Assembly (NCBI GenBank): GCA_964554435.1
Contig: CAZKOO010000004.1
Span: forward strand, 2,116 to 66,115
Source: an uncultured Candidatus Peribacteria bacterium
GTDB taxonomy: Bacteria; Patescibacteriota; Gracilibacteria; Peribacterales; Peribacteraceae
Length of the DNA: 64,000 bases
Direction of reading: 5' to 3'
Shown here: piece by piece, positions 3,191-51,065 of the stretch
Position numbering within the stretch: position 1 is the first letter of the stretch
Layout: the number at the start of each line of letters is the position of its first letter
Notes under the pieces: model-generated
Told to the model about the DNA's origin: nothing
The model's database searches: none
Seen by the model: only the letters and a program-made list of their open reading frames with translations
Made by a program: the position numbers and the translations under genes

Positions 3191-3218
3191 TTGACAAAAA
3201 GTAATATATATATATAAT
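3191..3218 (+). promoter_or_regulatory. Sigma70-like promoter (TTGACA-16-TATAAT)
   Basis: Second copy of the 60-bp promoter module. Sits 30 nt upstream of the ATG at 3248. Confidence 0.6.
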
Positions 3219-3247: not shown

Positions 3248-3610
3248 ATGTCTCAACATTTAAAAGATACTCCTACTCTCCAGACTTCGAGTGCTGGTGA
3301 ATCTATTGCAGTTATTCATGGAAAAGTACCAGGAAATCATGCTGAAAGTATCCATTACGAAGATGTATTTGCGCATATTATTGATATTTCAGATGGACAA
3401 CGAGCTAAATTTGCATTGTTCTTTACTGATTCTCCAGATTTGAATGCTCAATCATCATTATCAACCGGTGATATGATATCGGCAGCACCATTAGAAGTGA
3501 CTTTTTCAACGCTAGAAACAGGAACCCATGAACCTACTCTCGAACAGGCAATAAAAAATGCAAAAGATCAACTTCAAGCAATGAACTTAGAAGTCGTAGA
3601 AAATGAGTGA
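3248..3610 (+). CDS. Hypothetical small acidic protein
   Basis: 120-aa ORF with a promoter upstream and a perfect palindromic terminator downstream. Confidence 0.55.
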   Translation: MSQHLKDTPTLQTSSAGESIAVIHGKVPGNHAESIHYEDVFAHIIDISDGQRAKFALFFTDSPDLNAQSSLSTGDMISAAPLEVTFSTLETGTHEPTLEQAIKNAKDQLQAMNLEVVENE

Positions 3611-20817: not shown

Positions 20818-20930
20818 ATATATATTGACAATTTTTATCTATTTTGTCAAATTGAGCACATTTTTAAATCAATATAACTTATGATAACCGCAGGTGGAAA
20901 ACTTGCTGCTAAAGGAGAATTTTTTTAACA

Positions 20931-20952
20931 AACGCAGGTAGATACCTGCTCC
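20931..20952. repeat. REP hairpin copy
   Basis: AACGCAGGTAGATACCTGCTCC. A degenerate copy lies at 20886-20910. Confidence 0.6.
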
Positions 20953-20984
20953 AATTGTTTTTTACTCTTTTCTCCTCTTGTCTT

Positions 20985-22207: not shown

Positions 22208-22247
22208 GTATGACCAAGGTGATAGGTTTTAGGTTCTAGGTTTTAGG
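22204..22247. repeat. Word array (GGTGATA/GGTTTTA/GGTTCTA)
   Basis: Includes the TAG stop of the upstream gene. An opposed partner lies at 22401-22432. Confidence 0.7.
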
Positions 22248-22400
22248 AAACAAAACTCATGTCAAGTTCGTTTAGCGATTCTATACGGCTTTGCCTCAAT
22301 AATTTTGATTCTTCTCTCATAGAGCATTCGTATGAGAAGCCATTATGATGTTTCGGCTACGCCGATATATTCGAAATTATTAAAGCAAATTAGTATAATA

Positions 22401-22432
22401 CCTATGACCTATCACCTAAAACCTAAAACCTG
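22401..22432. repeat. Word array, opposite orientation (TATCACC/TAAAACC)
   Basis: CCTATGACCTATCACCTAAAACCTAAAACCTG. Its units are reverse complements of those at 22204-22247. Confidence 0.7.
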
Positions 22433-22445: not shown

Positions 22446-23300
22446 ATGCTTCTTCTTCCCCTCACCACTCCCCTTCTCCGTACTGGTGATGATCTCGCAA
22501 GCATCCTCTTTCAATGCGGATCTCTCCAAGATGGTGATATTCTCGTGCTTTCCTCAAAAGCGCTTGCAGCAGTTGAAGGAGCGCAGATTGATCTGTCTAC
22601 AATGACTGTGACAGATGAAGCGAAGGAATATGCAAAAAAATGCAATCAGGACCCTCGTTTTACGCAGGCGATTCTTGAGGAAACAAAGCGCATGAATGGA
22701 CGAGTGGTTGGCACATGCCCGTACGCACTATTTACCGCACTGAAGCCAAGCGGAATGCAGACTGGAACAATTCTGTGTCCGAATGCTGGACTTGATCAAT
22801 CGAATATCGAGAGTGGTTTTGCCATTGGTTGGCCGAGGGATAGCGTAGGATCGGTAAAACGACTACGAGAGAAAATTATTGGAGCACTGGAAAAGGAAAT
22901 CAATCCGTCTTCGCTCCTGAAGAGCTACGCCGAGATGAATGGAAAAGATACTCTCAACTCTCAACTATCAACTACCAACTTCGCACTCATTCTCTCCGAC
23001 TCGTGTTGCAAGCCTGCGCGTCTTGGAGTGACTGCGTTTGCTCTTGCGTGCTGTGGAATTGACCCTCTCAAGAGTGAAGTGGGCTCGAAAGACATTTTTG
23101 GAAAGCCACTGCGCATGACGCACGAAGCCCTTGCCGATCAACTCGCGACTGCTGGAAACATGCTCATGGGCAACGCAGGGCAATGCACGCCTGCAGCGAT
23201 TATCCGAGATCATGGCATTCCTTTTACGGAGTACAGCGGATGGGTGAATGGCATGGACCCACAGGATGATCTCTTTGCAGATATTCTTCGCTTCGAGTAA
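22446..23300 (+). CDS. CofE/FbiB-like gamma-glutamyl ligase family protein
   Basis: 284 aa. LLRTGDDLASIL...DGDILVLSSKALAAVEG is typical of the F420-0:gamma-glutamyl ligase fold. Contains a translated heptamer tract at 22950-22980. Confidence 0.7.
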   Translation: MLLLPLTTPLLRTGDDLASILFQCGSLQDGDILVLSSKALAAVEGAQIDLSTMTVTDEAKEYAKKCNQDPRFTQAILEETKRMNGRVVGTCPYALFTALKPSGMQTGTILCPNAGLDQSNIESGFAIGWPRDSVGSVKRLREKIIGALEKEINPSSLLKSYAEMNGKDTLNSQLSTTNFALILSDSCCKPARLGVTAFALACCGIDPLKSEVGSKDIFGKPLRMTHEALADQLATAGNMLMGNAGQCTPAAIIRDHGIPFTEYSGWVNGMDPQDDLFADILRFE

Positions 23301-23310
23301 GCTAGCAAGG

Positions 23311-24024
23311 ATGGCAACTCCTCGCTACGAAACAACGTGCATAGAGAAGAAACTTATTGCAACGGACGTGTATCAACTCCGCTTCATAAAGCCTGAAGGT
23401 TTTGCATACAGCGCTGGACAATTTGTGCTGTTCGACACTCCACACGTTGACGATCTGAGCACAACAGAACCACGCGCATACTCCATTGCATCAATGCAAG
23501 ATGAAGAAGATCTTCTCTTTGTCATTAAACTCAAAGATGGTGGTCGGTTTAGTGAATTTCTGCGTCAAAAACTTGATGTTGGTACAGAGATGACATTTGT
23601 CGGTCCACTGGGGTTTTTTACTCCCACGCTCAACGATCACGCGAAAATGCTCATTGGCACTGGAACAGGTATTGCGCCACTCCGAGCTCACCTTCGCTTT
23701 TTTGCACAACATGAGTATTCTCACGTTGTTCACGTGCTCTTTGGCGTACGAGAAAGCACTGACCTCTTTTGGGTTGATGAACTGAAAGCTCTTGGAAGCA
23801 CGCTCCCTTCTTTCTCTTTGCATCTCTGCTTGAGTGCAAAACACATCAATAATGATCATTATCACGGACGCGTGAGCGCACTCCTTCCTTCGCTGATAAC
23901 CGATGCTCTGACGACTGATGTATCCCTCTGTGGAAACCCTGCCATGGTGAAAGAACTGAAAACTCAGTGTATTGATGCGTTGCAGATTCCAAAGAAGCAG
24001 GTACACGGGGAAGGGTATGTGTAG
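23311..24024 (+). CDS. Ferredoxin-NADP reductase-like FAD/NAD(P)-binding oxidoreductase
   Basis: RAYSIAS (FAD RxYS motif) and GTGIAPL (NAD(P) motif). The ATG lies 10 nt after the upstream stop. Confidence 0.75.
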   Translation: MATPRYETTCIEKKLIATDVYQLRFIKPEGFAYSAGQFVLFDTPHVDDLSTTEPRAYSIASMQDEEDLLFVIKLKDGGRFSEFLRQKLDVGTEMTFVGPLGFFTPTLNDHAKMLIGTGTGIAPLRAHLRFFAQHEYSHVVHVLFGVRESTDLFWVDELKALGSTLPSFSLHLCLSAKHINNDHYHGRVSALLPSLITDALTTDVSLCGNPAMVKELKTQCIDALQIPKKQVHGEGYV

Positions 24025-27029: not shown

Positions 27030-27662
27030 TTAACCTGCTATCATCGCAAGAACCTTCGGGTACCACTCTTTTTCGAGTTCTTGCACCTTTTTCTGTAGTG
27101 TTTCCACTGTCTCATCTTCATCAATTGAACACTTTTTTTGTACAATAATTTCCCCTGTATCCACTCCTTCATCCATAAAATGGATGGTAACTCCAGATTC
27201 TTTTTCACCTGTCGCAAGCACTGCCTCATGCACATGGTGACCATACATCCCCTTTCCGCCAAATTTTGGAAGAAGTGCAGGGTGCACATTGATGATCTGT
27301 TTTGCCCATTTTTTGGTAAACCATGGAGAGAAGATCCACATCCAACCCATGCACGCGATAGAAAAGTTGATAGTTGATAGTTGATAGTTGATAGTTCCCC
27401 TCTCCTCGCGGGGAGAGGGGTTAGGGGTGAGGGCATGAATGGCACTATCAATTCTATGATCGTAGCTTTCACGATCTTCATCCTTCTGTTTTTCTACCAC
27501 GATGTAGGGCACATTGTGTGCTTTTGCTTTTTCAATACATCCACGATCGGCGCGATCGGTCACGAGACCAAGGCATGGATTGTTGAGTGTGCCGTTTTGA
27601 ATAGCATGTAGCGTTGCTTCGAATGTTGTACCGCGGGAAGAAGAGAGGACGATGAAGGACAT
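27030..27662 (-). CDS. purN: Phosphoribosylglycinamide formyltransferase
   Basis: 210 aa from MSFIVLSSSRGTTFEA, with INVHPALLPKFGG and GVTIHFMDEGVDTGEII motifs. Carries a repeat insertion. Confidence 0.85.
   Translation of the reverse strand: MSFIVLSSSRGTTFEATLHAIQNGTLNNPCLGLVTDRADRGCIEKAKAHNVPYIVVEKQKDEDRESYDHRIDSAIHALTPNPSPREERGTINYQLSTINFSIACMGWMWIFSPWFTKKWAKQIINVHPALLPKFGGKGMYGHHVHEAVLATGEKESGVTIHFMDEGVDTGEIIVQKKCSIDEDETVETLQKKVQELEKEWYPKVLAMIAG
27366..27434 (-). repeat. Composite element: 4x GTTGATA + GC hairpin + GGTTAGGGGTGAGGGC, inside purN
   Basis: Read in-frame as ALTPNPSPREERGTINYQLSTINFS. A sister copy lies at 28793-28858. Confidence 0.85.
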
Positions 27663-27682
27663 TGTAAGAGGATTCAGAGGAA

Positions 27683-27711
27683 GCAGAAGAGTCAAAGGAA
27701 TCAGAGGAAAC
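27683..27711. repeat. Left inverted repeat of the four-helix-bundle cassette
   Basis: GCAGAAGAGTCAAAGGAATCAGAGGAAAC matches the reverse complement of 28100-28128 at 27 of 29 positions. Confidence 0.75.
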
Positions 27712-28067
27712 TATGATAATGCAGCGCTTAATCGTGTCAAAAGAAAACTGATACGCTTGATTGCGTCATCATAATGCTCAAAATCAGAAATTTTTATATA
27801 GTCTAAATCGGTTGATAGTCGCAATTCACAATGTAATTCTTCAAGTGATGCATGCGCAATTTCTATAAACCGCATCTTTTCTTTTGCAGATTTTTTCGTA
27901 TTTCCTTCTGCGATATTAATGGGGGCACTATATGCCGATCTGCGCATTTGACTTACTAATCCAAACTTTTCTTCAGATGGAAAAGTACATGTTAATTTAT
28001 AAATACTTACACATAATTTGTATGCTTCCTGCCACACTATTAGTTTCTCATATGGTCGTTCATGCAT
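27711..28067 (-). CDS. Four-helix-bundle protein (23S rRNA IVS protein / Avd-like family)
   Basis: 118 aa with FPSEEKFGLVSQMRRSAYSAPINIAEG. Paralog of 1725-2084. Confidence 0.85.
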   Translation of the reverse strand: MHERPYEKLIVWQEAYKLCVSIYKLTCTFPSEEKFGLVSQMRRSAYSAPINIAEGNTKKSAKEKMRFIEIAHASLEELHCELRLSTDLDYIKISDFEHYDDAIKRISFLLTRLSAALS

Positions 28068-28099
28068 AATACTATTATATCATAGGTTCAGGTTCCTCT

Positions 28100-28128
28100 G
28101 TTTCTTCTGACTCCTTTGACTCTTCTGC
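28100..28128. repeat. Right inverted repeat of the four-helix-bundle cassette
   Basis: GTTTCTTCTGACTCCTTTGACTCTTCTGC. Ends 5 nt before the carA stop codon. Confidence 0.75.
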
Positions 28129-28132
28129 ATCT

Positions 28133-29278
28133 TTATAATTGCATCAAGAATTCATCAAACAAATATGCTGCATCTTCTGGCCCTGGTGTTGCTTCGGGGT
28201 GAAATTGAACCGAGAAAAATTTACCAGATTCGTGACGAATGCCTTCCACTGTTCCATCGTTCGCGTTTGTAAACCACACACTCCAACCCTGAGGTAATGT
28301 GGATGCATCCACAGCAAAGCCATGATTTTGCGATGTAATGATGCAACGATCGGTTGCCTTTCCATCTTTCCATTCAATGCATGGCTGATTCAATCCACGA
28401 TGACCATATTTGAGCTTGTACGTATCTCCACCAATCGCAAGCGAGAGAAGCTGATTGCCAAGACAGATGCCGAAGGTTGGAATGTTCTGTTCAATTGCCC
28501 ATTTAATCTGAGTAATTGTTTCGGTGCACTTTTTTGGATCTCCTGGCCCATTGCTGATGAAGAGACCATCGTACTGTAATGATGAATTCTTGAGATCATA
28601 GTTCCATGGAACACGATGCACACGAACGCCTCGAGAAAGCCACGAACGAAGAATGCCACGCTTAATACCACAGTCGTAGACAACCAGTGTTTTTGGCTCG
28701 AGTCCTTCTTCCTTCTTCTCTGGCTCGTAGGTCACAACATCGGTACATGACACCTCCGCAACGAGATTGAGATTGTTCGGATCTAGAAAAGAGTTGGTAG
28801 TTGGTAGTTGGTAGTTGGTAGTTCCCTCTTCCTCTGGGGAGAGGGTCGGGGTGAGGGCACACATTCTCCCCAGCATCACTCCATGTTCACGGAGTTTTTG
28901 CGTGAGAGCTCGAGTGTCGATGCCGGAAATGCCTGGAATGTTGTGATGAACCATCCACTCATGTAGAGAGCTGACGGCCTTATGATGACTAAACTCACGC
29001 ACTTCTGAACTCACGATAATACCACGGACTTGAACAGCCTCACTCTCAAAATTTTTACTAAACCCATACTCATTCTTCTCTTCGCTAGGAACGCCATAGT
29101 TCCCAACAAGAGGATAGGTAAACACGAGTATCTGTCCACGAAAACTTGGATCGGTCATGGAGTCGGGGTACCCAACCATGCCCGTTGAAAACACTACTTC
29201 GCCATCTGTATCAATAGGCGCACCAAAAGACTCACCTTCGAATACTGTTCCGTCGGAAAGAAGAAGAGAAGCTGACAT
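28133..29278 (-). CDS. carA: Carbamoyl-phosphate synthase small (glutaminase) subunit
   Basis: 381 aa with a CPSase small N-domain and a GATase triad context (ICLGNQLL, HGFAV, FSVQFHPEA). Carries a repeat insertion in the interdomain linker. Confidence 0.9.
   Translation of the reverse strand: MSASLLLSDGTVFEGESFGAPIDTDGEVVFSTGMVGYPDSMTDPSFRGQILVFTYPLVGNYGVPSEEKNEYGFSKNFESEAVQVRGIIVSSEVREFSHHKAVSSLHEWMVHHNIPGISGIDTRALTQKLREHGVMLGRMCALTPTLSPEEEGTTNYQLPTTNSFLDPNNLNLVAEVSCTDVVTYEPEKKEEGLEPKTLVVYDCGIKRGILRSWLSRGVRVHRVPWNYDLKNSSLQYDGLFISNGPGDPKKCTETITQIKWAIEQNIPTFGICLGNQLLSLAIGGDTYKLKYGHRGLNQPCIEWKDGKATDRCIITSQNHGFAVDASTLPQGWSVWFTNANDGTVEGIRHESGKFFSVQFHPEATPGPEDAAYLFDEFLMQL
28793..28858 (-). repeat. 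Composite element: 4x GTTGGTA + GC hairpin + GGTCGGGGTGAGGGC, inside carA
   Basis: Read in-frame as ALTPTLSPEEEGTTNYQLPTTNS. Same architecture, orientation and frame as the purN copy. Confidence 0.85.
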
Positions 29279-29326: not shown

Positions 29327-30069
29327 GAAGCAGGATTCTTTCCTGCGGTCCTTTTTATAAAAAAGATACTTCATATCTTCATTTCTAATGGAGTCACATC
29401 CCATTTTCATGATGCAGAAGACCAAGGATAATCAGATTGACAAAAAGCAATGCCAGCTTTCACAGGATTGGCATGAATGTATGAAAGCACATTGTGTGCA
29501 TCATCTGGAAAAAGAAGGTGAAATCGTGATTGCCAAATTGGTCCTCGATCGATTGCAAATGCAGTTCCCCTTTTGAAGGTATACAATATTTTTGAGATTG
29601 ATCCATTGTCTGGAACACTAACTAAAAGATGTACATGATCTGGCATTATTGCAAATCCATAGAGAAAAAATGGAAAAATTTGCTGAGTACGATAGAGTGC
29701 AAGGACTGCTTCATTTGCATAAGCTGGCACTGAAAAAATAGTCTCTCTGTTTTGGGTATTTGTTATAATAAACATGATGGCACTATGCTGGATAGGATGT
29801 CTTTGAAAAGCCATATGTGTCATTGTAGAACAACCGCGCGAAGGAATCGCGCTCCTGTTTGTGTAAAACTTTGATGATCTCTCAATTTTTTGCTATCTAT
29901 AATCATTTTTTTAGTTCTGTGATGAAAAAGAACAGCTTAAAAAGAAGAAATAGTGTATAAAAGAAGATGCAAGACCACGCGAAAGAATCGCGCTCCTATT
30001 GTAATAAATTGAGATAAACGGTGGCAGGCTTATCATAAAAAACGGGAGCAGGATTCTTTCCTGCGGTCC
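29327..30069 (-). mobile_element. REPtron: RAYT gene bracketed by REP hairpins
   Basis: REPs lie at 29327-29352 (+), 29833-29856 (rc), 29974-29997 (rc) and 30044-30069 (+). The consensus is GGAGC(AGG/GCG)-ATTCYTT-(CCT/CGC)GCGG. Confidence 0.75.
29407..29823 (-). CDS. REP-associated tyrosine transposase (IS200/Y1 HUH family)
   Basis: 138 aa with HUH motif MPDHVHLLV and a catalytic Tyr context SYIHANPVKAGI. Confidence 0.8.
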   Translation of the reverse strand: MTHMAFQRHPIQHSAIMFIITNTQNRETIFSVPAYANEAVLALYRTQQIFPFFLYGFAIMPDHVHLLVSVPDNGSISKILYTFKRGTAFAIDRGPIWQSRFHLLFPDDAHNVLSYIHANPVKAGIAFCQSDYPWSSAS

Positions 30070-30099
30070 TCTTGTAAAAAATCCCCCCCCCACCATCTC

Positions 30100-30930: not shown

Positions 30931-33387
30931 TTATTGTCTATATTCCTCTAAATTCATTTTCAACGTCGAAAGATTTTTCGTACCATTAATACTTGGTAAA
31001 GCATTAAATGCTTTTATGAATTCAGCGATTAAGAAATTGATGGAATTTTGCGCATCTTTTAGTGGTGTTTTTAGGAAAGAAATCACCTTCATTGTTGGTT
31101 TTAGTGGTGCCCACTCGTCTGCTTCAAAGCCAAATTCAATGAGATCTTTTTTACGAACTGGTTTTTTCAAACTTGGAGTGAATTGCAATGCGTTAAGAGC
31201 ATCAACCATCTTCCTCTCACACATCTTCGTTAACACTTTCTCCAGCGCAACCTTGCCCGAGGAACAGGCGAGGAATTCTTTGAAGGAAAGATACATTGGC
31301 TCAACTCCTTCAAGTCTCATTTCCACACGATCACTCTTATCCTTATCAACTCTCTCAACCCTCATAGAAATAGCCTCTCCATGATAATTCGTCTCTGCTT
31401 CAAGCTCTCGCTTGAGTGTGAAGAATTTTGCATTCTCGGCATCGATGACATCTTGCGTTCGTTTTGGTGTTTTCAGTGCAAGCTTTTTCTGCACATAGGT
31501 CATGAGCTTATCGGAGCTTTCAGTAATGCCTTGTTTCGTAAGCAAGCGCTGACCCTCAAGCATCATTTCTACAAACATTGCATGTGCATTTGTCCATTCA
31601 AGAACACCATCACCATTCACATCATACTGCACAGGTGTATCTGGCAAATTGTTATAGGTACAATCATTCCGACGACGTTCTGCCTCGATAAACGGTACCA
31701 TCTCTCTATACTTCGGGTCGTGATCGAATGCGAGGGAGTAGTAGATAAAACCAAGCCCTTCCCCTGCGCTGAGCATGTTCTCTGTCACAGGGCCCGCAAA
31801 CCCCAATTTTTTTGCTTGTGCTTCAGGGATTGTTGTCTGGCTTTGGGTAAAGAATTGATCGATGGCACGAGGGTCATAGCCCATGCGCTCAAGCATCGGT
31901 CGTGCTTGCTCTTTAAACTCTTTTGTATAATGCAATACCACGCGTCCATCACTCAAAATAGTGGTATAGCGTGCAAGATCACCCAATTTCATTTCAGAGA
32001 GCAGAGAAAAAGCGATGGTCGTGCAATGACAACGGTTGCGTGCTTCTTCTGTTAAGAACTGCTCCATCAAGTCCATGCGCGCAGCTGTTTCTTCAGGTGT
32101 CAATTTCTTGTCTGCAAACTTGATGCCAAGAAGGCGCTCAGTTGGCCCTTGCACGACATCTGTTGCTTTTTGTACAACGCCCCGCGCAAGTGGTGCCCAA
32201 ATTTCATTGAGTGGATCTTCCTGTTTCAGTAAAAACTTCTGGCCAAAATACATCACACCAAGCGTTGCAAACATCTTTGGCATTTTATGGAGCAAAAAAC
32301 CTCCTATGGCAAGCAGTGCTATTTTCTCTGCGCCACCCAAATTGCTAAATGTCTCTCCCAGCGTTTCGCTGTCTCTTTCGCGTGACAACTTATCTACTTT
32401 TGTGAGCTTTCCAAGCTCCTGACGATCGGAAAGCAGAGCAAGTTCACGGTCCATCTTCTTCTGACTGAGGGTATATTCCACTTCTTTGTGCACAGTAGGG
32501 TCCACAATACCCATCAGTGGGTTGAGCACTCCATTGAGAAGTGATGGTTCAAGGGTAGAGCGAAGTGACTGAATAGAGGGCATCATGGCAAAGCCTTTCG
32601 TGTGATCGGCAAGATCTTCATAAAACCCTGCATTCATCTTCCTAGCACTTCTAAGATCTCTATTGCCATACTGTGCCCTCAGTGCCGCTTTTGCAAGAAG
32701 GAATGCAGGTTCAGGAGGAGTGTTTGTTGGGTCAGGATTTTTCTCACCAAGCATGTACTGCAGAGCGATCAGCACATCTTTTTTATTCTCTAGAATTTTT
32801 TCTTTTGTAGAGATCATGTCTGTTTCTGGTCCACTCGCAATAATCAATTGTTGTGGAATGATAGTTCGCACAAAATCCACAAAAATTTGTTTGCGGGCTT
32901 CTGGAGTCTGTCCTGCAAGTAAGCCTTCTGGACCATTTTCCAATGTAAAGCCAATTGATGGATCGGGATTTCTTGGAAAAGTTCCGCGCTCAAAGTATTG
33001 AATCCACTTTCCAAGATTGAACAGTTCTGCACTTTTTTCAAATGATGGTCTTGCTCCTTCTCTGTACCCTTTTTCGATCAACTGCTGAATGCTTGCGGGC
33101 ATCACTTTTGTAAACTCTACGGCAGTGCGCAATTGCTTCTGCTTCAGTGCTTCCGAGCGTCCATCTGCCTCGTACGTTTCTATCCATCCTTTTACGAAAG
33201 AATCATTGAGTCCGCCAAGCACTCCCCGTCCGGCAACCAAGCCTGTGTGAATACCATTTTTTGCTAGCCACCCCGATGCGTACGATAGCCCATACGTGAC
33301 GTTTTCTGTAATACCTTTATTCTCATATATCTCCCTCGCCTCACGCGTGCTATAAGCTTGCCGATGAAGGGAAGAATGAAAAAACAT
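30931..33387 (-). CDS. Hypothetical large protein (818 aa)
   Basis: Long uninterrupted ORF with ordinary codon texture. Its start overlaps the upstream stop (TAATG). No known domain recognised. Confidence 0.6.
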   Translation of the reverse strand: MFFHSSLHRQAYSTREAREIYENKGITENVTYGLSYASGWLAKNGIHTGLVAGRGVLGGLNDSFVKGWIETYEADGRSEALKQKQLRTAVEFTKVMPASIQQLIEKGYREGARPSFEKSAELFNLGKWIQYFERGTFPRNPDPSIGFTLENGPEGLLAGQTPEARKQIFVDFVRTIIPQQLIIASGPETDMISTKEKILENKKDVLIALQYMLGEKNPDPTNTPPEPAFLLAKAALRAQYGNRDLRSARKMNAGFYEDLADHTKGFAMMPSIQSLRSTLEPSLLNGVLNPLMGIVDPTVHKEVEYTLSQKKMDRELALLSDRQELGKLTKVDKLSRERDSETLGETFSNLGGAEKIALLAIGGFLLHKMPKMFATLGVMYFGQKFLLKQEDPLNEIWAPLARGVVQKATDVVQGPTERLLGIKFADKKLTPEETAARMDLMEQFLTEEARNRCHCTTIAFSLLSEMKLGDLARYTTILSDGRVVLHYTKEFKEQARPMLERMGYDPRAIDQFFTQSQTTIPEAQAKKLGFAGPVTENMLSAGEGLGFIYYSLAFDHDPKYREMVPFIEAERRRNDCTYNNLPDTPVQYDVNGDGVLEWTNAHAMFVEMMLEGQRLLTKQGITESSDKLMTYVQKKLALKTPKRTQDVIDAENAKFFTLKRELEAETNYHGEAISMRVERVDKDKSDRVEMRLEGVEPMYLSFKEFLACSSGKVALEKVLTKMCERKMVDALNALQFTPSLKKPVRKKDLIEFGFEADEWAPLKPTMKVISFLKTPLKDAQNSINFLIAEFIKAFNALPSINGTKNLSTLKMNLEEYRQ

Positions 33388-33767
33388 TAGGAATTGGAAG
33401 ATTGAGTACTATGAAATGCAGTATACTCTTTTTCTGCAGATGCAAGAATTTCGTTTCGTGCGCTGGCGAGCGCACCTGCAACACACGTTGTAACCTCAGG
33501 GTTTTGAGTAGTATCCATGTACTTCTCGCACCAGAGAACAATCTGTTCGATGTCACTGCCGTACACTGCCTCGTGCCACTCGCTATAAGCACTGCCCCCT
33601 AGCCTCAGAGCAATTTCTTGACAACAAATCTGCATTGTCTTCGTTGCAAGATATTCCAAGAAATCCCCATCATTCTCGTGTGAAAAAATGGGAAGTTCAG
33701 CAGCTGCTTCACCAACAATTTTGCTGATTTCTGCAGTGAGCGCCTGTGGGGAGAAGAGAGAGTCCAT
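33387..33767 (-). CDS. Hypothetical protein (126 aa)
   Basis: ORF translationally coupled to the 818-aa gene. Confidence 0.5.
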   Translation of the reverse strand: MDSLFSPQALTAEISKIVGEAAAELPIFSHENDGDFLEYLATKTMQICCQEIALRLGGSAYSEWHEAVYGSDIEQIVLWCEKYMDTTQNPEVTTCVAGALASARNEILASAEKEYTAFHSTQSSNS

Positions 33768-33873
33768 GTGTTAGGTATTAGGTGTTAGGTATTAGGGGTT
33801 AGGTATTAGGGGTTAGGGGAGAGGGGTTAGGCCTGCCCGCCGAAGTCCGAAGGACGTAGGAGGGGGTGAGGGC
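33768..33873. repeat. Intergenic composite element (heptamer array + GC element)
   Basis: GTGTTAGGTATTAGGTGTTAGGTATTAGGGGTTAGGTATTAGGGGTTAGGGGAGAGGGGTTAGGCCTGCCCGCCGAAG...GGGGGTGAGGGC. Confidence 0.8.
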
Positions 33874-37398: not shown

Positions 37399-37704
37399 AT
37401 GAGCAATGCATCTTCTCCATCTTCGCATGATTTTCAGTATCTCATCGAACTCATGCACCAAATGATGGAAAAGCAAGACATCATGCAAGAGCAACTCGAT
37501 GATGTAAAAGATGAATTAGTGATCATCAATTCTCGTCTTGATTCCACAAATGCGCGTATTGATGGCGTTGAAATAAAAGCAGAGCTTCGTCATTGTGACC
37601 TGATGGATGCACTGAATGAGAAAGTGGAGTTACTGAAAGATACAACCATCAATCATGAGCATCGGATTGTACGCGTTGAGCATAAACTAGAGCTTGCAGT
37701 GTAA
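37399..37704 (+). CDS. Hypothetical small coiled-coil protein, twin 1
   Basis: 101 aa from ATG 37399. Shares a 94-bp near-identical core with twin 2. Confidence 0.55.
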   Translation: MSNASSPSSHDFQYLIELMHQMMEKQDIMQEQLDDVKDELVIINSRLDSTNARIDGVEIKAELRHCDLMDALNEKVELLKDTTINHEHRIVRVEHKLELAV

Positions 37705-37731
37705 TTCTCTTCATTTCTTTTTTTCACTCCT

Positions 37732-38010
37732 ATGAGTACCCACATTACCTCCGACGACTCTCAATACATTATTTCACTACTACATCAAGTCATTGAAAAA
37801 CAATCAGAGCATGATCAGAAATTTGAATCTATAGAAGATCAATTTGATACAGTGAATGCGCGTATTGATGGCGTTGAAATAAAAGCAGAGCTTCGTCATT
37901 GTGACCTGATGGATGCACTCAATGAGAAAGTGGAGTTACTGAAAGATAAGACTCAAAATCACGAGCATCGTATTACTCATATAGAGCATGCACTTGGTCT
38001 TGCTGTGTAA
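37732..38010 (+). CDS. Hypothetical small coiled-coil protein, twin 2
   Basis: 92 aa with the shared core NARIDGVEIKAELRHCDLMDALNEKVELLKD. Confidence 0.55.
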   Translation: MSTHITSDDSQYIISLLHQVIEKQSEHDQKFESIEDQFDTVNARIDGVEIKAELRHCDLMDALNEKVELLKDKTQNHEHRITHIEHALGLAV

Positions 38011-38014
38011 CACT

Positions 38015-38287
38015 CTACTTCTTTTCCTCTTTCTTCGGCTCTTCTTTCTTTGCTTCTACTTTTGGTTCTTCTTTTGGCTTTTCTGCTGATGGCTCTGGCT
38101 TCTTTGGTTCTGACGCTGGAGGTGTAGAAGCTCCTGATAGTAAGTCCTTCATTTTTCCACTACAGTGTGAAAGTATATTTCGCAAAAATTGAGCCATCCC
38201 TCCACCTTTTGGAAGATTTGCTACACCTTCTGTAAGAGATCCTTTCTGTCGTAGATCTGTAAGTTGTGACATTGAACAGTGTCCCAT
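38015..38287 (-). CDS. Hypothetical protein with Lys/Glu/Pro-rich tail
   Basis: 90-aa ORF with a low-complexity C-half. Weak support. Confidence 0.3.
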   Translation of the reverse strand: MGHCSMSQLTDLRQKGSLTEGVANLPKGGGMAQFLRNILSHCSGKMKDLLSGASTPPASEPKKPEPSAEKPKEEPKVEAKKEEPKKEEKK

Positions 38288-38355: not shown

Positions 38356-40542
38356 CTACAGCCATCTTTTTGAGATGAAGGAACCTGCAATTCCTGCAAG
38401 GAGAGATAGTGCAACAGATGATAGACCTCCTTTTCCTTCTCTCTGTTCTGGTTCTTGTGTCAGTTCAAGTGTTGGCGTGTGCTGCTCTGCAAGAAGATCT
38501 TTCCGATACATCTCCGTGTAATAGACTTGTTTTTTACTGGTTTTCTTTGCAACTTTCTTCTTTACCGCTTTTTTCGATGATACTTTTTTCTCTTTTTTCG
38601 ATCCGTCATCATTCTTTTTCTGCATGGATGTGTCTTCTCCAATCTTTTCTTTAGTCTCATTTTGTACTATTTCTTCCTCATCACTTTCTTGCCATATTCC
38701 AAGGCTTTTTTCTTGAGAATCCTTCTCTGCTTGTGTATACTCTGACCTTCTTTTGTATTCTTTCTTCTTTTCAGCTTCTAACAGACCAATACTGATCAAC
38801 TCTTTCGCACTATCTTTCATGGTAGAATTTGAAAGATATGCTTGTAATTTTCCTTCTTTTGACCACAATTCTGTATCAAATTGTAGTTCAACTTTTTGAT
38901 CTTTTAAAAGGGCTCGAATAGTTTCTACTACTTCACTATTTTCCTCTGAAAATAATGCTCCAATCATCTGAAGAGGAATTTGCTCTTCGTTAAAGTATTT
39001 CTGAGCTGAAAGATCTGGTTGAAACAGGAGTGTTCCGTCGTCAAAGACTTCTACAAGTGTTCCGGTTATTTCTCCATCTCTACAGTCAGCGGAGTAATAC
39101 CTTCTCCCCTCTTCTGCTTTCTCCCAATCAATCGTCGAGACAGAAGCATCGAGTGGTGACACCAGCGTGACATGGCCAATGCTATTTGGAAGACTGATCT
39201 TCATTTCGCTAGAAAACAATATCCGCTCTTCACTTGGTGCAAGATCTCCTGTGAGTGCATACGTCGATAGCGTCGTATTACCAATCTTGAGCTTCCAGCC
39301 ACTCAAATGTACTGTGTCCTCTCCTCTATTTTTAATGATGACGGATTCTTTTCCACTATCGACTGAGTCGGGGTTTGGTAGTGCGGAAACGAGGAATAGA
39401 TTTGCAAAGGGTGAAGGATACGTGATAGGCATGCCGTCCGAGAGTGAGGCCTGCTTTGATGAACTCAGGACAATCTCTTTTGTCAAAATAGATGTTCCAC
39501 AGCTATTCTTCGCCTCGAGCGTCACCTGCGTTGTACCAATCTGGACAAACGCATGCGGTGGTGGATTACAACTCTCACTTGTGTATCCATCGGAAAACGT
39601 CCAATGACATGTACTGTCGGAAATGGACCCTGTGATGGCAACCGCCTGAAAGTTGACAGTGGTTTTATCGATACCAGTGAGTTCTCCGTCTTGGATGATG
39701 ATGGAAAGATTGGGAAGGAAACATTCAGAGGTTATAGGTTCTAGGTGATAGGCACTAGAAGCAAATGATGATTCAGGGGAGACAGATGGAGAAGAATCAG
39801 AGGAAGCAGAGGAAGCAGAAGAGGCAAGGGATGAAGAGGAAGTAGAGGAAAGAGAGGATGTGATTGACGGAGAAGAGACAGATGATGCAGGCGATGATTG
39901 CATACTTGATGATAAGGAACTATCGACGAGCAGAGCGGCATTTCTTGCCGCGATGTCAGATGATACAACAGCAAATGATGACACCGAATTCTGCACACCA
40001 GGCGTTGCAAGAACATTTGCACCGCCATCCATGTTGATTATCTCAATTGCTGATGACCAGTTTGAGGCATCAATTCCTGAGCCAAGTGGATCGATGCGCT
40101 CCATGCTTGCCTTCACTCCACCACTAGGATTGAGCCCTGCAAACGGGTTCCCCACCGCATCATCCACAGTATCAATGAGCAAAGAAGATTGATCAAATAA
40201 TTTGATCAATAATTTTGTATTCGGAAGAGAAATACTTGTAGTGACGAGAAAAGGATCGATGGCAAGACGCGAAGAATGTTGATCTTTATTCGAAAGAATA
40301 ATGTACTCATTGGGCGCGATCACTGACCCACTGGGAAATGTCACCATCACGCTTTCTTGTCCTGTGCTTTTGAGTGAAGTGATGGTGTAGCCAGAAAGAT
40401 CAATTTCAACGTGATCGGGATTATAGAGCTCTATCCATTCATCAGCAGTACTCAGGTCACTCCCCATCCACATCACTTCATTAATCACAACGTGCGCAGA
40501 GCAGAGAGATGGTATCAGAAAGAGAAATGCTGAAAGCATCAT
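38356..40542 (-). CDS. Membrane-anchored lamin-tail-domain (x2) protein with SNase-like C-terminal domain
   Basis: Signal peptide MMLSAFLFLIPSLCSA. LTD motifs VVINEVMWMG...EWIELYNP...LSGYTI and ALPNPDSVDSGKESVIIKN...LSGWKL. An SNase-like block (LQAYL...ELISIGLLEA...SLGIWQ), a Ser-rich linker and a C-terminal TM. Confidence 0.7.
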   Translation of the reverse strand: MMLSAFLFLIPSLCSAHVVINEVMWMGSDLSTADEWIELYNPDHVEIDLSGYTITSLKSTGQESVMVTFPSGSVIAPNEYIILSNKDQHSSRLAIDPFLVTTSISLPNTKLLIKLFDQSSLLIDTVDDAVGNPFAGLNPSGGVKASMERIDPLGSGIDASNWSSAIEIINMDGGANVLATPGVQNSVSSFAVVSSDIAARNAALLVDSSLSSSMQSSPASSVSSPSITSSLSSTSSSSLASSASSASSDSSPSVSPESSFASSAYHLEPITSECFLPNLSIIIQDGELTGIDKTTVNFQAVAITGSISDSTCHWTFSDGYTSESCNPPPHAFVQIGTTQVTLEAKNSCGTSILTKEIVLSSSKQASLSDGMPITYPSPFANLFLVSALPNPDSVDSGKESVIIKNRGEDTVHLSGWKLKIGNTTLSTYALTGDLAPSEERILFSSEMKISLPNSIGHVTLVSPLDASVSTIDWEKAEEGRRYYSADCRDGEITGTLVEVFDDGTLLFQPDLSAQKYFNEEQIPLQMIGALFSEENSEVVETIRALLKDQKVELQFDTELWSKEGKLQAYLSNSTMKDSAKELISIGLLEAEKKKEYKRRSEYTQAEKDSQEKSLGIWQESDEEEIVQNETKEKIGEDTSMQKKNDDGSKKEKKVSSKKAVKKKVAKKTSKKQVYYTEMYRKDLLAEQHTPTLELTQEPEQREGKGGLSSVALSLLAGIAGSFISKRWL

Positions 40543-40699
40543 CCTTTTATTGAACACATTTTTTATACAATAAAGAGAGGAAAGATAGAGGTCTGAAAAC
40601 ATGCTTCCTAGCATGAGAGAAAAATCATCAATTGAAAGATCGGACAAGAAATTTCAAAACTGCATAGTCATTTTTTGCGCAGAAAAATCATCAATACTG

Positions 40700-42476: not shown

Positions 42477-42556
42477 TTGATAGTGGGTAGTAAAGAGTGG
42501 GTAGTAAAGAGCGCTGAAAAAGTCTACTAACTACTACCAACTAACTACTACCAACT
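42474..42556. repeat. Opposed word arrays after rny
   Basis: TAGTTGATAGTGGGTAGTAAAGAGTGGGTAGTAAAGAG, then CTACTAACTACTACCAACTAACTACTACCAAC. The first unit is the rny TAG stop. Confidence 0.75.
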
Positions 42557-42681
42557 TTTCACTCAGCTCCCCTTGACTCCCCCTCTACTCTTCTCTAGAA
42601 TCTCTTCATCTTTTTAAGACTCGATTCCTCTCCTTGAGAGGGTCCGTCATTACTCTCTCATTTCTTTTTCCCATCTCTCTT

Positions 42682-50039: not shown

Positions 50040-50846
50040 ATGGCGAATAGCCCTCTCATCGTCGGCATTCTGAATATCACTCCCGATTCTTATGTTGATG
50101 GGGGAAAGTACATGAATGTTGAGATGGCTCTTTCGCATGCACAAAAAATGATAGAAGATGGCGCAACCATCATCGACATTGGCGGAGAGTCGAGCGGACC
50201 CTTGTCAAACGATATTTCTGCTGATGAAGAATGTGCACGAGTCGTTCCGGTGATCACAGCTCTCCATCACCATTTTCCGTCGATTAGACTTTCCATCGAT
50301 ACGACAAAATCTGTCGTTGCAACAGAAGCGCTTCTTGCTGGTGCGACGATGATCAATGATATTACTGCTGGACGAAGTGATCCGCATATACTCCACATTT
50401 GCGCAGAACATGGATGTGACGTTGTGCTAATGTATTCAAAAAATTCTTCTGCACGCACAACTATTGAACAAAAAAATTATACAGATATTATGGCGACTAT
50501 TCATACTTTCTTTGAAGGGAGAATAGAGGCCTGTCTACACGCTGGCATCACACGAGAGCACATCATCATCGACCCAGGGCTTGGACATTTTCTGTCGAGT
50601 GACGCTCGATATTCTTTTGAAGTACTGAACAGACTCTCTGAACTTTCTGATCTTGGGAAGATCTTTATTAGTCCTTCTCGAAAATCTTTTCTTGCAGGCA
50701 AACACAACCTCCCTCCAAGTGAACGTCTTCCTGCCACTCTTGCCGCAACAGTCATCGCCCTTCAAAATGGCGCATCGTTCATTCGCACGCATGATGTGTG
50801 GGAGACAGCAGAGGTGGTACGAGTGTGGGAGGCAATTAGCAATTAG
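50040..50846 (+). CDS. folP: Dihydropteroate synthase
   Basis: 268 aa from MANSPLIVGILNITPDSYVDGG, with IIDIGGESS and FIRTHDV motifs. Confidence 0.9.
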   Translation: MANSPLIVGILNITPDSYVDGGKYMNVEMALSHAQKMIEDGATIIDIGGESSGPLSNDISADEECARVVPVITALHHHFPSIRLSIDTTKSVVATEALLAGATMINDITAGRSDPHILHICAEHGCDVVLMYSKNSSARTTIEQKNYTDIMATIHTFFEGRIEACLHAGITREHIIIDPGLGHFLSSDARYSFEVLNRLSELSDLGKIFISPSRKSFLAGKHNLPPSERLPATLAATVIALQNGASFIRTHDVWETAEVVRVWEAISN

Positions 50847-50873
50847 CTTTTGGCTGTTGATTTTCTTGTTACT

Positions 50874-50932
50874 GCCCTCACCTTAAGCTCCCCGCAGTCG
50901 CGGGGGGAGGGGTTAGGGGTGGGGGCTGAGGG
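50874..50932. repeat. GC-hairpin element (intergenic copy)
   Basis: GCCCTCACCTTAAGCTCCCCGCAGTCGCGGGGGGAGGGGTTAGGGGTGGGGGCTGAGGG. Confidence 0.7.
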
Positions 50933-50940
50933 AAGACATT

Positions 50941-50961
50941 CTCAGGTAGATACCTGCTCCC
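50941..50961. repeat. REP hairpin copy
   Basis: CTCAGGTAGATACCTGCTCCC. Confidence 0.6.
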
Positions 50962-51065
50962 TTTGTATCTTTTCTTTCTCTGAATCCTCTGCCTCTTCTG
51001 TTCCTTCTGGAATCCTTGATTTCCTTGATTTCTTGGATCTCATTGAATTCCTTCCTCTGCATCTC

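What the first reader, a model, noticed from the sequence alone, without database searches (positions are those of the whole stretch)
27366..27434. Composite heptamer/GC-hairpin repeat inserted in-frame inside purN
Plus strand 27366-27434 consists of four perfect GTTGATA heptamers, a GC hairpin (CCCCTCTCC..GGAGAGGGG) and GGTTAGGGGTGAGGGC. purN is on the minus strand and reads straight through it as ALTPNPSPREERGTINYQLSTINFS. As I recall canonical PurN alignments, this ~23-aa block has no counterpart; it sits just before the strand equivalent to VVLAGFM. The same element family also occurs intergenically (33768-33873, 50874-50932). A repeat has therefore colonised a purine-pathway ORF without breaking the frame. 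This resembles the Rickettsia palindromic elements that insert into coding genes.
Basis: partly seen in the sequence, partly recalled or inferred. Interest (0 to 1): 0.7.

Follow-up and report, generated by a model that had tools for sequence, protein, structure and literature searches.

The report
Triplex-motif and heptamer repeat inside purN
A 75-base composite repeat (four 7-base units fused to a BoxC-type triplex/hairpin motif, known in E. coli only between genes) sits in frame in a surface loop of the purine enzyme PurN of a Peregrinibacteria (CPR) bacterium, and a sister copy sits in the neighbouring carA, so junk-like repeat DNA is being read as protein loops that differ between strains.

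Summary
Window 27360-27434 holds GAAAAG, four GTTGATA units, a 10-bp GC hairpin and GGGGTGAGGG, and purN (27030-27662, minus strand) reads through it as 25 residues.

The "GC hairpin + GGTTAGGGGTGAGGGC" is a BoxC/PIT/TM-ECO-type intrastrand-triplex motif with a TTA second loop ("type A"). Holder et al. 2015 report this motif as always intergenic in E. coli.

purN is intact:
- The catalytic Asn/His/Asp are conserved.
- dN/dS against a relative is 0.08.
- The AlphaFold model has pLDDT 91, with the insert as a low-confidence coil between helix 64-77 and strand 100-104.

An independent assembly (L206) carries the same allele. A 3-kb contig (L001) is otherwise identical except for one SNP, but has an unrelated heptamer cassette at this site.

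- A sister composite lies in frame in carA (28793-28858).
- Heptamer-only blocks lie in frame in a cofE-like gene and in a large LTD-like (lamin-tail-like) protein gene.
- The same PurN and CarA loops vary greatly in length and sequence across Peribacteria.
- The triplex motif also lies in frame in LigA, Mfd, UvrB and an ABC ATPase of other phyla.

The likeness to Rickettsia palindromic elements is an analogy, not family membership. I read the element as a tolerated, unstable passenger in a permissive loop. How it is copied is unknown.

The parts
27030..27662 (-). purN (GAR formyltransferase), 210 aa, the host gene. It is intact and under purifying selection.
   Evidence: Pfam PF00551, E 5e-41, profile 2-181/181. 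Identical to P0001. Catalytic N125/H127/D168 invariant. dN/dS 0.079 against L002. AF2 pLDDT 91.3. Foldseek TM 0.84-0.90 to PurN structures.
27360..27434 (-). The whole composite element as read by purN: 75 nt, residues 77-101 (ALTPNPSPREERGTINYQLSTINFS).
   Evidence: The region that differs from the otherwise identical contig L001 is 27357-27437.
27366..27393 (+). Heptanucleotide array, 4 x GTTGATA (rotated: TAGTTGA). It has stops in all three frames on the plus strand and is open in all frames on the purN strand, where it encodes (T)INYQLS. It is preceded by the conserved flank GAAAAG.
   Evidence: TRF: period 7, 4.6 copies, 100% matches.
27397..27420 (+). GC hairpin: C-stem CCCCTCTCCT, loop CGCG, G-stem GGGAGAGGGG.
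   Evidence: DNA fold -11 kcal/mol, z -3.6. mRNA-strand fold -18.9 kcal/mol, z -3.6.
27421..27434 (+). Second loop TTA plus third strand GGGGTGAGGG(C). Folded back antiparallel on the G-stem, it gives 10 allowed purine-motif triads (G.G:C, T.A:T, A.A:T). This is the BoxC/PIT/TM-ECO 'type A' architecture.
   Evidence: Read directly from the sequence. Pattern and type A/B definitions from PMC4666352. The same architecture occurs in more than 120 loci of many phyla.
28793..28858 (+). Sister composite in frame in carA (28133..29278, minus strand): 4 x GTTGGTA, GTT, CCCTCTTCC, TCT, GGGGAGAGGG, TC, GGGGTGAGGG, C. It is read as ALTPTLSPEEEGTTNYQLPTTN(SF), in the linker between GVMLGR and DPNN.
22950..22982 (+). 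Heptamer-only block in frame in the cofE-like gamma-glutamyl ligase gene (22446..23300, plus strand): ACTCTCA ACTCTCA ACTATCA ACTACCA ACTTC, read as TLNSQLSTTNF, just before the strand LILSDS.
39729..39758 (+). Heptamer block in frame in the 752-aa LTD-like (lamin-tail-like) protein gene (38356..40614, minus strand), read as SSAYHLEPIT.
33768..33873 (+). Intergenic family member: GTTAGGT/ATTAGGT heptamers grading into GGGGTTAGGGGAGAGGGGTTAGG, a nested 29-nt hairpin (33832-33860), then AGGGGGTGAGGGC.
50826..50932 (+). Intergenic family member: GCAATTA/GCTTTTG heptamers, then a full palindrome GCCCTCACCTTAAGCTCCCCGC / GCGGGGGGAGGGGTTAGGGGTGGGGGC.

Best explanation
The element is a non-coding dispersed repeat that has come to lie inside a coding sequence and is translated as a passenger.

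It has two modules. One is a heptanucleotide tandem array (TAGTTGA type). The other is a BoxC/PIT/TM-ECO-type motif: a hairpin plus a G-rich third strand that can fold into a purine-motif intrastrand triplex in single-stranded DNA.

In purN the composite occupies the codons of the loop between helix 3 and strand 4 of the Rossmann-like fold. It is oriented so that the stop-rich heptamer strand and the G-rich triplex strand are on the template strand. The mRNA is therefore open and is read through as about 22 disordered residues, plus two residues (FS) that start the strand.

The enzyme keeps its fold and catalytic residues, so I infer no function of the insert for PurN. Only copies that keep the frame and fall in permissive loops survive selection.

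The DNA is structurally unstable (slippage in the array, stalling or repair at the hairpin/triplex). That would explain why the loop is replaced between near-identical strains and varies greatly in length and sequence across the lineage.

What is shown: the anatomy, the in-frame reading, the intact gene under purifying selection, the loop position, family copies elsewhere, strain polymorphism, and recurrence at the same sites in other lineages and in genes of other phyla.

What is inferred: that the insert is translated into stable protein, that it is neutral, and that it spreads and turns over by replication or repair-linked template switching or recombination rather than by a dedicated transposase.
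For: Anatomy and family. Searches show the architecture. (PMC4666352) define the motif, its loops (type A TTA, type B CCG), in-vitro triplex formation and strain-level instability in E. coli. Searches show the same hairpin plus third strand in more than 120 loci of many phyla.

Intact host gene..

Loop position. In the model residues 78-99 are coil with a block pLDDT of about 60, while the rest of the protein is mostly above 90.

Extra relative to orthologues. The loop is 27 aa against a mode of 11 aa in 120 Peribacteria PurN.

Survivorship by orientation. All four genic heptamer arrays in the window are in the stop-free orientation.

Instability and polymorphism.
- L001 matches the window over 3,004 bp apart from the 81-bp versus 54-bp loop cassette and one SNP 12 bp away.
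- L206 from a sister run carries the window allele.

Recurrence at the same sites.
- L203 and L205 PurN hold a triplex motif in another reading frame and without heptamers.
- L204 CarA holds two inverted motifs.
- The CarA linker is variable across 120 homologues, with 7-aa periodic peptides.
- The L002 purN element shares the 5' junction and frame with the window despite dS 0.89, which suggests long retention.

Generality. The motif lies in frame inside LigA (the adenylation domain is split into two Pfam stretches), Mfd, UvrB and an ABC ATPase of other phyla.
Against: - There is no transcript or peptide evidence that the insert is present in the mature protein.
- No element-free allele in a near-identical strain was found, so the insertion event, its exact boundaries and any target-site duplication cannot be read.
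- Triplex formation was not supported in vivo even in E. coli (PMC4666352).
- The strain difference could equally be short-tract homologous recombination between co-existing alleles rather than local turnover.
- The conserved GAAAAG flank of the arrays, and the 29-nt nested hairpin shared between two genomes at different loci, point to templated copying by some specific machinery that I could not identify.
- Two identical-architecture composites in two nucleotide-biosynthesis genes 1.4 kb apart could hint at a shared regulatory role.
Confidence: 0.72

Rival explanations
1. The composite is an active mobile element (REP/REPIN- or MITE-like). A single-strand hairpin transposase, such as the RAYT encoded 2 kb away (29407-29823), would insert it at chosen sites, purN and carA among them.
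For: - A RAYT-family gene is present: NCBIfam NF047646, 80.8 bits against a cut-off of 80.
- The family is dispersed, with a conserved flank (GAAAAG) and a conserved end (GGGGTGAGGGC).
- The same site in PurN holds the motif in different reading frames in different lineages, as expected from repeated independent insertions.
- Nested insertion of a 29-nt hairpin in loop 2.
Against: - The hairpins flanking the RAYT gene (AGCAGGATTCTTTCCTGCGGTCC; CGCGCGAAGGAATCGCGCTCC) and their dispersed relatives (family D8) have a different sequence from the purN hairpin.
- No terminal inverted repeats or target-site duplication can be seen.
- In E. coli the motif was not found associated with mobile elements.
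- The motif occurs in phyla with very different mobilomes.
Confidence: 0.15
2. The heptamer tract is a contingency locus. Gain or loss of one 7-nt unit shifts the frame and reversibly switches purN (and carA) off and on in a symbiont that can salvage nucleotides.
For: - The unit length is not a multiple of three.
- The arrays are perfect (100% matches) and homogenised within each copy (GTTGATA x4 against GTTGGTA x4).
- Both Logan contigs break inside or at the arrays.
- Heptamers are the commonest long simple-sequence repeat in bacteria and are thought to be prone to slippage (PMC4679880).
Against: - Four units is short for high-frequency slippage.
- Every allele seen is in frame: window, L001, L002 and 120 homologues.
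- The arrays also sit in loops of genes with no obvious benefit from switching.
- Contig breaks at repeats are expected for k=31 assemblies.
Confidence: 0.07
3. The insert has been co-opted. Either the extra loop gives PurN/CarA a new interaction surface, or the shared mRNA hairpin co-regulates the purine and pyrimidine/arginine pathways.
For: - The same composite lies in two adjacent nucleotide-pathway genes.
- The element has been retained at the same junction in a lineage separated by dS 0.89.
- The mRNA hairpin is stable, -18.9 kcal/mol.
Against: - The loop sequence is not conserved. It is replaced outright in a near-identical strain, and lengths run from 9 to 37 aa across relatives.
- The insert has low model confidence and no secondary structure.
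- PIT motifs showed no promoter or terminator activity in E. coli.
- The same modules occur in unrelated genes and in intergenic DNA.
Confidence: 0.08
4. This is an artefact or a dead gene: a mis-assembled repeat, or purN is a pseudogene.
For: The window comes from a metagenome assembly, and repeats can be mis-joined.
Against: - An independent Logan assembly of another run gives the identical junction and element.
- The frame is kept, the catalytic residues are conserved, dN/dS is 0.079 and the fold is predicted with confidence.
- Related elements lie at the same site in other assemblies.
Confidence: 0.02

Closest known systems
BoxC / PIT (potential intrastrand triplex) / TM-ECO motif of E. 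coli and many other bacteria (Hoyne et al. 2000; Holder et al. 2015, PMC4666352)
   Same: The order of parts is the same: C-rich stem, short loop, G-rich stem, 3-nt loop, second G-rich stem. The second loop is TTA, as in 'type A' (carA and many other loci have TC/CC/CCG-like loops, as in 'type B'). All triads are allowed for a purine-motif triplex. The motif is multi-copy, is sometimes paired as an inverted doublet (window 50874-50932; L204 CarA), and is associated with strain-level sequence variability.
   Different: In E. coli it is reported as always intergenic. Here it is in frame inside purN and carA, and I found it in frame in LigA, Mfd, UvrB and an ABC ATPase of other phyla. The stems are 10 nt rather than 9 nt, so the strict 9-3-9 pattern of the paper is not matched letter for letter. 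It is fused to a heptamer array. The host is a CPR bacterium with 43% G+C.
Rickettsia palindromic elements (RPE; Ogata et al. 2000, recalled from my own knowledge; mentioned in PMC1779305 and PMC10969869, which I did not read)
   Same: A palindromic dispersed repeat inserted in frame in housekeeping genes and read through as an extra peptide segment, without destroying the protein.
   Different: As I recall, RPEs are about 100-150 bp and form Rickettsia-specific sequence families. This element is 75 bp, is built from a triplex motif plus a microsatellite, belongs to a motif class found across phyla, and shows outright cassette replacement between strains.
Heptanucleotide direct repeats: TAACTGA repeats of marine Beggiatoaceae and cyanobacteria (MacGregor 2015, PMC4679880) and STRR repeats of heterocystous cyanobacteria (Mazel et al. 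1990, from my own knowledge)
   Same: Short tandem arrays of a 7-nt unit that carries stop codons in all three frames in one orientation. They are mostly intergenic, and the few inside ORFs are in the reverse, stop-free orientation, giving a 7-aa periodic peptide (SVISYQL there, TINYQLS here).
   Different: The unit is TAGTTGA/TAGTTGG rather than TAACTGA (2 of 7 positions differ) and varies from array to array. The arrays here are fused to a triplex motif. They sit in internal loops of conserved enzymes rather than at protein termini.
REP/REPIN elements with their RAYT transposase (PMC2817692, PMC3333891, PMC3116915; listed, not read)
   Same: Short GC-rich hairpin repeats in many copies, and a RAYT-family gene is present in the window.
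   Different: The hairpins that flank the RAYT gene are a different sequence family. REPs are extragenic by definition. No link between the RAYT and the purN element could be shown.

Membership tests
BoxC/PIT/TM-ECO intrastrand triplex motif | Three consecutive blocks: C-rich stem, loop of 3-6 nt, G-rich stem, loop of 3 nt, second G-rich stem (CCCTCNCCC N3-6 GGGNGAGGG N3 GGGNGAGGG, one mismatch allowed). | tested here: met
   CCCCTCTCCT-CGCG-GGGAGAGGGG-TTA-GGGGTGAGGG. The blocks, their order and the loop lengths are the same. The stems are 10 nt, one extra G:C/G triad on each side of loop 2, so the literal 9-3-9 string does not match, but the general finder criteria of the paper (stem 6-15 nt, loops 1-6 nt) are met. 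The carA copy is more degenerate (8-bp stem with one wobble, loop 2 = TC).
BoxC/PIT/TM-ECO intrastrand triplex motif | Every position can form an allowed purine-motif triad (G.G:C, A.A:T, T.A:T). | tested here: met
   The third strand GGGGTGAGGG, antiparallel to GGGAGAGGGG, gives 8 G.G, 1 T.A and 1 A.A triads, read. One underlying base pair is a G.T wobble.
BoxC/PIT/TM-ECO intrastrand triplex motif | Second loop TTA (type A) or CCG (type B). | tested here: met
   purN has TTA. Many loci of other phyla have CC/TT/TC.
BoxC/PIT/TM-ECO intrastrand triplex motif | Intergenic location ('always located intergenically' in E. coli MG1655). | tested here: not met
   It lies inside purN and carA in frame. 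It also lies inside PurN and CarA of other Peribacteria and inside LigA, Mfd, UvrB and an ABC ATPase of other phyla. This is a feature of distribution, not of the motif itself.
BoxC/PIT/TM-ECO intrastrand triplex motif | Forms a triplex as single-stranded DNA. | not testable with these tools
   Needs CD or NMR on the oligonucleotide. ViennaRNA predicts only the hairpin.
Rickettsia palindromic elements | In-frame insertion in conserved genes, encoded segment on the protein surface. | tested here: met
Rickettsia palindromic elements | Length of about 100-150 bp and membership of an RPE sequence family, restricted to Rickettsia (from my own knowledge). | tested here: not met
   The element is 75 bp, the host is a Peregrinibacteria bacterium, and the sequence is a BoxC-type motif plus heptamers. 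I made no direct comparison with RPE consensus sequences.
Heptanucleotide direct repeats (TAACTGA/STRR type) | Tandem 7-nt units with stops in all three frames in the forward orientation; ORF-internal copies only in reverse orientation. | tested here: met
   TAG and TGA in GTTGATA arrays. All four genic arrays are reversed. About 20 period-7 arrays in the window, mostly intergenic.
Heptanucleotide direct repeats (TAACTGA/STRR type) | Unit sequence TAACTGA. | tested here: not met
   The unit is TAGTTGA (purN) or TAGTTGG (carA); other arrays differ again.
REP/RAYT system | The repeat hairpin matches the hairpins that flank the RAYT gene. | tested here: not met
   The RAYT flanks are AGCAGGATTCTTTCCTGCGGTCC and CGCGCGAAGGAATCGCGCTCC, which are unrelated to CCCCTCTCC/GGAGAGGGG.
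MITE | Terminal inverted repeats and a target-site duplication. | tested here: inconclusive
   No terminal inverted repeats at the ends of the composite and no evident duplication. No empty site in a near-identical strain was available to define the ends.
Diversity-generating retroelement target | A template/variable repeat pair differing at adenines, a reverse transcriptase, and Avd. | tested here: not met
   The neighbouring four-helix-bundle protein scores 35.7 bits against the Avd model, whose cut-off is 80. The alleles differ in length and in their whole sequence, not at adenines. No second copy of the loop was found.

The most novel reading that the evidence does not exclude
BoxC-type triplex motifs, alone or with heptamer arrays, could be a cross-phylum class of templated insertion elements that regularly write themselves into permissive loops of conserved proteins and then drive rapid, strain-level diversification of those loops. 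On this reading they are copied by specific but unidentified machinery. Hints of that are the conserved GAAAAG flank, the fixed four-unit arrays, nested hairpins shared between genomes, and repeated occupation of the same PurN and CarA loops in different frames. In Peribacteria the heptamer tracts might in addition act as frame-shifting switches for nucleotide-biosynthesis genes.
Probability: 0.15. Interest if true: 0.8.

Novelty: new variant of a known kind. Interest (0 to 1): 0.58.

Why it matters
BoxC/PIT motifs have been known since the 1990s. They have no assigned function or copying mechanism, and in E. coli they are described as always intergenic.

Intact copies in frame in essential enzymes of a CPR bacterium, and in LigA, Mfd, UvrB and an ABC ATPase of other phyla, show two things. 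The motif can enter coding DNA, and protein surface loops can be made of, and diversified by, non-B-DNA repeats.

This gives a natural test bed: the same loop carries different cassettes in near-identical strains. It can be used to ask how these motifs spread and whether they destabilise DNA in vivo.

It also matters for annotation. Variable loops and contig breaks in CPR genomes may often be repeat-derived.

Tried and rejected
Searches that found nothing or little:
- Rfam gathering-threshold scan and tRNA scan of the window: nothing.
- Exact-protein look-ups for P0001 and for two window proteins next to other repeats (23248-24024; 33387-33767), meant to fetch more strain-level contigs: not on record.
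- Protein-guided scan of JGI metagenome contigs with the PurN alignment: only five Peribacteria-like loci, with short or only slightly lengthened loops carrying no repeat element, so no new filled/empty pair.
- Search of the window for a donor copy of the L001 cassette: none. The nested 29-nt hairpin was found only in L002 among the fetched loci.
- blastn of a full palindrome against E. coli genomes: only weak partial hits without annotation. The link to BoxC came from the literature instead.
- Literature searches for Peregrinibacteria/Peribacteria plus repeats or in-frame: no description of this.

A test that was not informative:
- Counting stop-free frames across the motif in GC-rich genomes, because 79 of 133 motifs had a spanning frame of 200 codons or more by composition alone. 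I therefore checked four cases with Pfam.

Ideas rejected:
- Intein or intron: 75 nt, no splicing domain.
- Terminator: no U-run after the hairpin.
- DGR target: see the membership test.
- RAYT-cognate REP: different hairpin family.
- Pseudogene and assembly chimera.

Full report
**1. What is in the sequence**

On the plus strand, 27366-27393 is four perfect GTTGATA units. GAAAA precedes them and GTT follows. Next come CCCCTCTCCT (27397-27406), CGCG, GGGAGAGGGG (27411-27420), TTA, GGGGTGAGGG (27424-27433) and C27434.

Both modules are far more frequent in the window than chance allows. The heptamer pattern has 17 matches against 0.17 expected. The G-rich tail has 4 matches against 0.09 expected. 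The hairpin folds better than all 200 shuffles, as DNA (-11 kcal/mol, z -3.6) and as the purN mRNA strand (-18.9 kcal/mol, z -3.6).

The minus-strand ORF 27030..27695 reads through the element. The likely start is the ATG at 27662. This gives a 210-aa protein identical to database protein P0001. The element encodes residues 77-101, ALTPNPSPREERGTINYQLSTINFS.

**2. The host gene is a working purN of a Peregrinibacteria (Peribacteraceae) bacterium**

- Pfam Formyl_trans_N matches end to end (E 5e-41).
- The best homologues are Peribacteria PurN.
- The catalytic Asn/His/Asp (N125, H127, D168) are invariant in the alignment with E. coli.
- Outside the loop, dN/dS against the relative L002 is 0.079, with dS 0.89.
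- An AlphaFold2 model has mean pLDDT 91.3. It shows helix 64-77, coil 78-99 (block pLDDT about 60) and strand 100-104.
- The model superposes on solved GAR transformylases with TM 0.83-0.90 and rmsd about 1.9 A.

This loop is at the N-terminal end of a Rossmann-type strand. In such folds the substrates usually bind at the opposite edge of the sheet (general knowledge; I did not measure this on the model).

**3. The block is extra, and the site is variable**

In 120 Peribacteria PurN proteins the segment between I75 and A103 is 9-37 aa long. The mode is 11 aa (34 of 120); the window has 27.

Short forms look like E. coli (..EAILALGADKETVIAAM). Long forms carry repeat signatures:
- Eight have PSP...RERG-type peptides.
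- Twenty-four show matches at a lag of 7 residues.

DNA of three such genes confirms this.
- L203 PurN holds CCCTCACCCC-CGA-CCCCTCTCCC-GTCGCGAC-GGGAGAGGGG. It is read in another frame (IPSPPTPLPSRRERG) and has no heptamers.
- L205 has the same with a longer first loop.
- L204 CarA holds two such motifs in inverted configuration.

**4. Strain-level polymorphism and independent confirmation**

Logan contig L001 (SRR7369912) matches the window over 3,004 bp except in two respects. The purN loop is a different cassette: 54 nt of GCCAAnn heptamers (ERLMQKSQLPQAKSQLL) in place of the 81 nt at 27357-27437. There is also one SNP, 12 bp away.

Logan contig L206, from a sister run (SRR7369924), carries the window allele letter for letter and ends inside the heptamer array. 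So the element is not an assembly chimera, and two unrelated repeat cassettes exist at this codon position in runs with adjacent accession numbers.

Whether this reflects local turnover or short-tract recombination between alleles cannot be told. In L002 (77% aa identity) the element has the same 5' junction and frame (AI-T/H, then GCC CTC A..). It also has a 29-nt hairpin nested in the second loop and different heptamers. This suggests long retention with fast internal change.

**5. The family in the window**

A sister composite with the same architecture lies in frame in carA, 1.4 kb away (28793-28858). It reads ALTPTLSPEEEGTTNYQLPTTN, in the linker between GVMLGR and DPNN. That linker is also highly variable in 120 Peribacteria CarA proteins. 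It carries 7-aa periodic peptides (VSGQWSV, KIENGKL, ISDQRSA) and, in P0172 and P0237, SLTPNPSPDGRGE-type peptides.

Heptamer-only blocks lie in frame in two further genes:
- the cofE-like ligase gene (22950-22982, TLNSQLSTTNF);
- a 752-aa LTD-like (lamin-tail-like) protein gene (39729-39758, SSAYHLEPIT).

All four genic arrays have the stop-free strand as the coding strand; the other strand has TAG/TGA in every frame. Intergenic members are at 33768-33873 and 50826-50932. Roughly 20 further period-7 arrays are scattered mostly between genes. Several arrays share the flank GAAAAG.

**6. What the GC part is**

They come from Planctomycetota, Verrucomicrobiota, many Proteobacteria, Chloroflexota, Bipolaricaulota and others. 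Nearly all are preceded by CTCCCTCTCCCC and a 6-8 nt loop.

This is the BoxC / PIT / TM-ECO motif. Holder et al. 2015 (PMC4666352) give the following:
- pattern CCCTCNCCC N3-6 GGGNGAGGG N3 GGGNGAGGG;
- a second loop of TTA (type A) or CCG (type B);
- 23 copies in E. coli MG1655, 'always located intergenically';
- 3,610 copies in 262 proteobacterial genomes, and related G/C-rich triplex motifs abundant in cyanobacteria;
- a stable purine-motif intrastrand triplex in vitro as single-stranded DNA, but no support for it in vivo;
- no promoter or terminator activity;
- association with strain-level sequence variability.

The purN copy has the same blocks with 10-nt stems and a TTA loop, and all ten triads are allowed ones.

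**7. What the heptamer part is**

The closest description is the TAACTGA direct repeats of marine Beggiatoaceae and cyanobacteria (PMC4679880). These are mostly intergenic, have stops in all frames in the forward orientation, and a few ORFs hold reversed copies that give a 7-aa periodic peptide. The STRR repeats of Nostocales, which I recall from my own knowledge, are similar.

The unit here (TAGTTGA) differs from TAACTGA at 2 of 7 positions, and it varies between arrays while being uniform within each array.

**8. Generality beyond this lineage**

Stop-free frames across the motif are common by composition alone in GC-rich genomes. I therefore checked four cases with Pfam.
- In a Planctomycetota LigA the adenylation domain is split into two matched stretches around ...PPSPPWGEGRGEGSSPTPSPP....
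- In an Mfd the motif pair lies between the UvrB-interaction and D3 domains.
- In a UvrB it lies before the C-terminal helicase domain.
- In a Verrucomicrobia ABC exporter it lies just before the ATPase (ABC_tran) domain match, after the transmembrane domain.

In-frame BoxC motifs are therefore not peculiar to Peribacteria. I found no paper that reports this.

**9. Interpretation**

The best-supported reading is a passenger. A dispersed, structurally unstable repeat lies in a permissive loop. It is transcribed and read through. It is tolerated because it keeps the frame and lies away from the conserved core. It changes quickly because arrays slip and hairpin/triplex DNA provokes stalling, repair or recombination.

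The anatomy, the intact gene, the loop position, the polymorphism and the recurrence are shown. Translation, neutrality and the copying mechanism are inferred.

A RAYT-family transposase gene lies 2 kb away (29407-29823; 80.8 bits against a cut-off of 80). The hairpins that flank it belong to another family, so a link is unsupported. I considered phase variation through the 7-nt tract, a co-opted function, a DGR target, an intron or intein, a pseudogene and an assembly artefact. I rate all of these low (see the rivals and the membership tests).

**10. Verdict**

The Rickettsia comparison is an analogy of outcome, not membership.

The element is a new variant of known kinds: a BoxC-type triplex motif fused to a heptamer array, sitting inside coding sequence in a CPR bacterium. 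It is of moderate to good interest, mainly because it contradicts the picture of BoxC as strictly intergenic (as reported for E. coli) and offers natural allele pairs for testing how these motifs spread and destabilise DNA.

Noticed in passing
window 29407-29823 (-), with 29330-29352, 29833-29855, 29973-29995, 30049-30071; also 8842-8888, 20927-20973, 50935-50981, 53672-53718: A RAYT-family (REP-associated tyrosine transposase) gene of 138 aa. It is flanked on each side by two hairpin repeats (AGCAGGATTCTTTCCTGCGGTCC and (A)CCGCGCGAAGGAATCGCGCTCC). A related hairpin, CGCAGGTAGAAACCTGCTCCC, is dispersed at four other places. This looks like a separate REP/RAYT system in a CPR genome.
   Followed up: partly
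window 27667-27709, 28094-28136, 1659-1692, 2100-2132, 51013-51053, 53707-53744, 63242-63276: Tandem arrays of 9-nt units (such as AGAGGAATC or CTTACCTTC) fill short intergenic spacers. One ends 5 nt upstream of the purN ATG, and others flank both four-helix-bundle genes. On the mRNA strand they are CU-rich, and no Shine-Dalgarno-like sequence is evident between the array and the purN start.
   Followed up: no
window 27711-28067 (-) and 1725-2084 (+): Two genes for 23S-rRNA-IVS-type four-helix-bundle proteins (PF05635, a weak Avd-like match). One is wedged between carA and purN here and in L001/L206. It is absent from that position in L204 and L205, where an FAD/NAD-binding oxidoreductase gene sits instead.
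   Followed up: partly
L001 1-30 and L206 1-30 (equivalent to window about 28820-28790): Two independent Logan contigs from different runs start at exactly the same base, at the junction between the carA heptamer array and its GC hairpin. L206 also ends inside the purN heptamer array. This suggests either a coverage drop at the triplex motif or polymorphism there.
   Followed up: no
window 33832-33860 and L002 438-466: A 29-nt hairpin (CCTGCCCGCCGAAGTCCGAAGGACGTAGG) is nested in the second loop of the triplex motif. It is 27/29 identical between an intergenic copy in the window and the purN copy of a genome that differs by dS 0.89. A small repeat appears to insert into another repeat.
   Followed up: partly
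L040 (Planctomycetota LigA), L004 (Mfd), L088 (UvrB), L006 (Verrucomicrobia ABC exporter); also L085 (VgrG-like), L038 (AcrB-like), L017 (methyltransferase-like): BoxC-type triplex motifs are read in frame inside conserved genes of unrelated phyla. The first four were checked with Pfam. The last three I judged only from the translated sequence.
   Followed up: partly
window 2669-2738 and 3148-3217: A 70-nt segment, 91% identical between its two copies, carries TTGACA and TATAA-like boxes. It lies upstream of two small ORFs (2773-3075, 3248-3610) that have no Pfam match.
   Followed up: no
window 59870-60065 (ORF 59851-60072, +): Tandem 42-nt and 36-nt coding repeats that appear to encode a Lys/Ala-rich (KKAAPKAAKK-like) small basic protein. 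This is judged from the repeat DNA; I did not translate the ORF.
   Followed up: no
window 37538-37719 and 37844-38025: A 182-nt direct repeat, 82% identical, with copies 306 nt apart, in a region between large genes.
   Followed up: no
window 42476-42565, 22223-22431, 60121-60225: Between same-strand genes, heptamer arrays often occur as inverted pairs (a forward array followed by a reversed array). Such pairs could form long imperfect hairpins.
   Followed up: no
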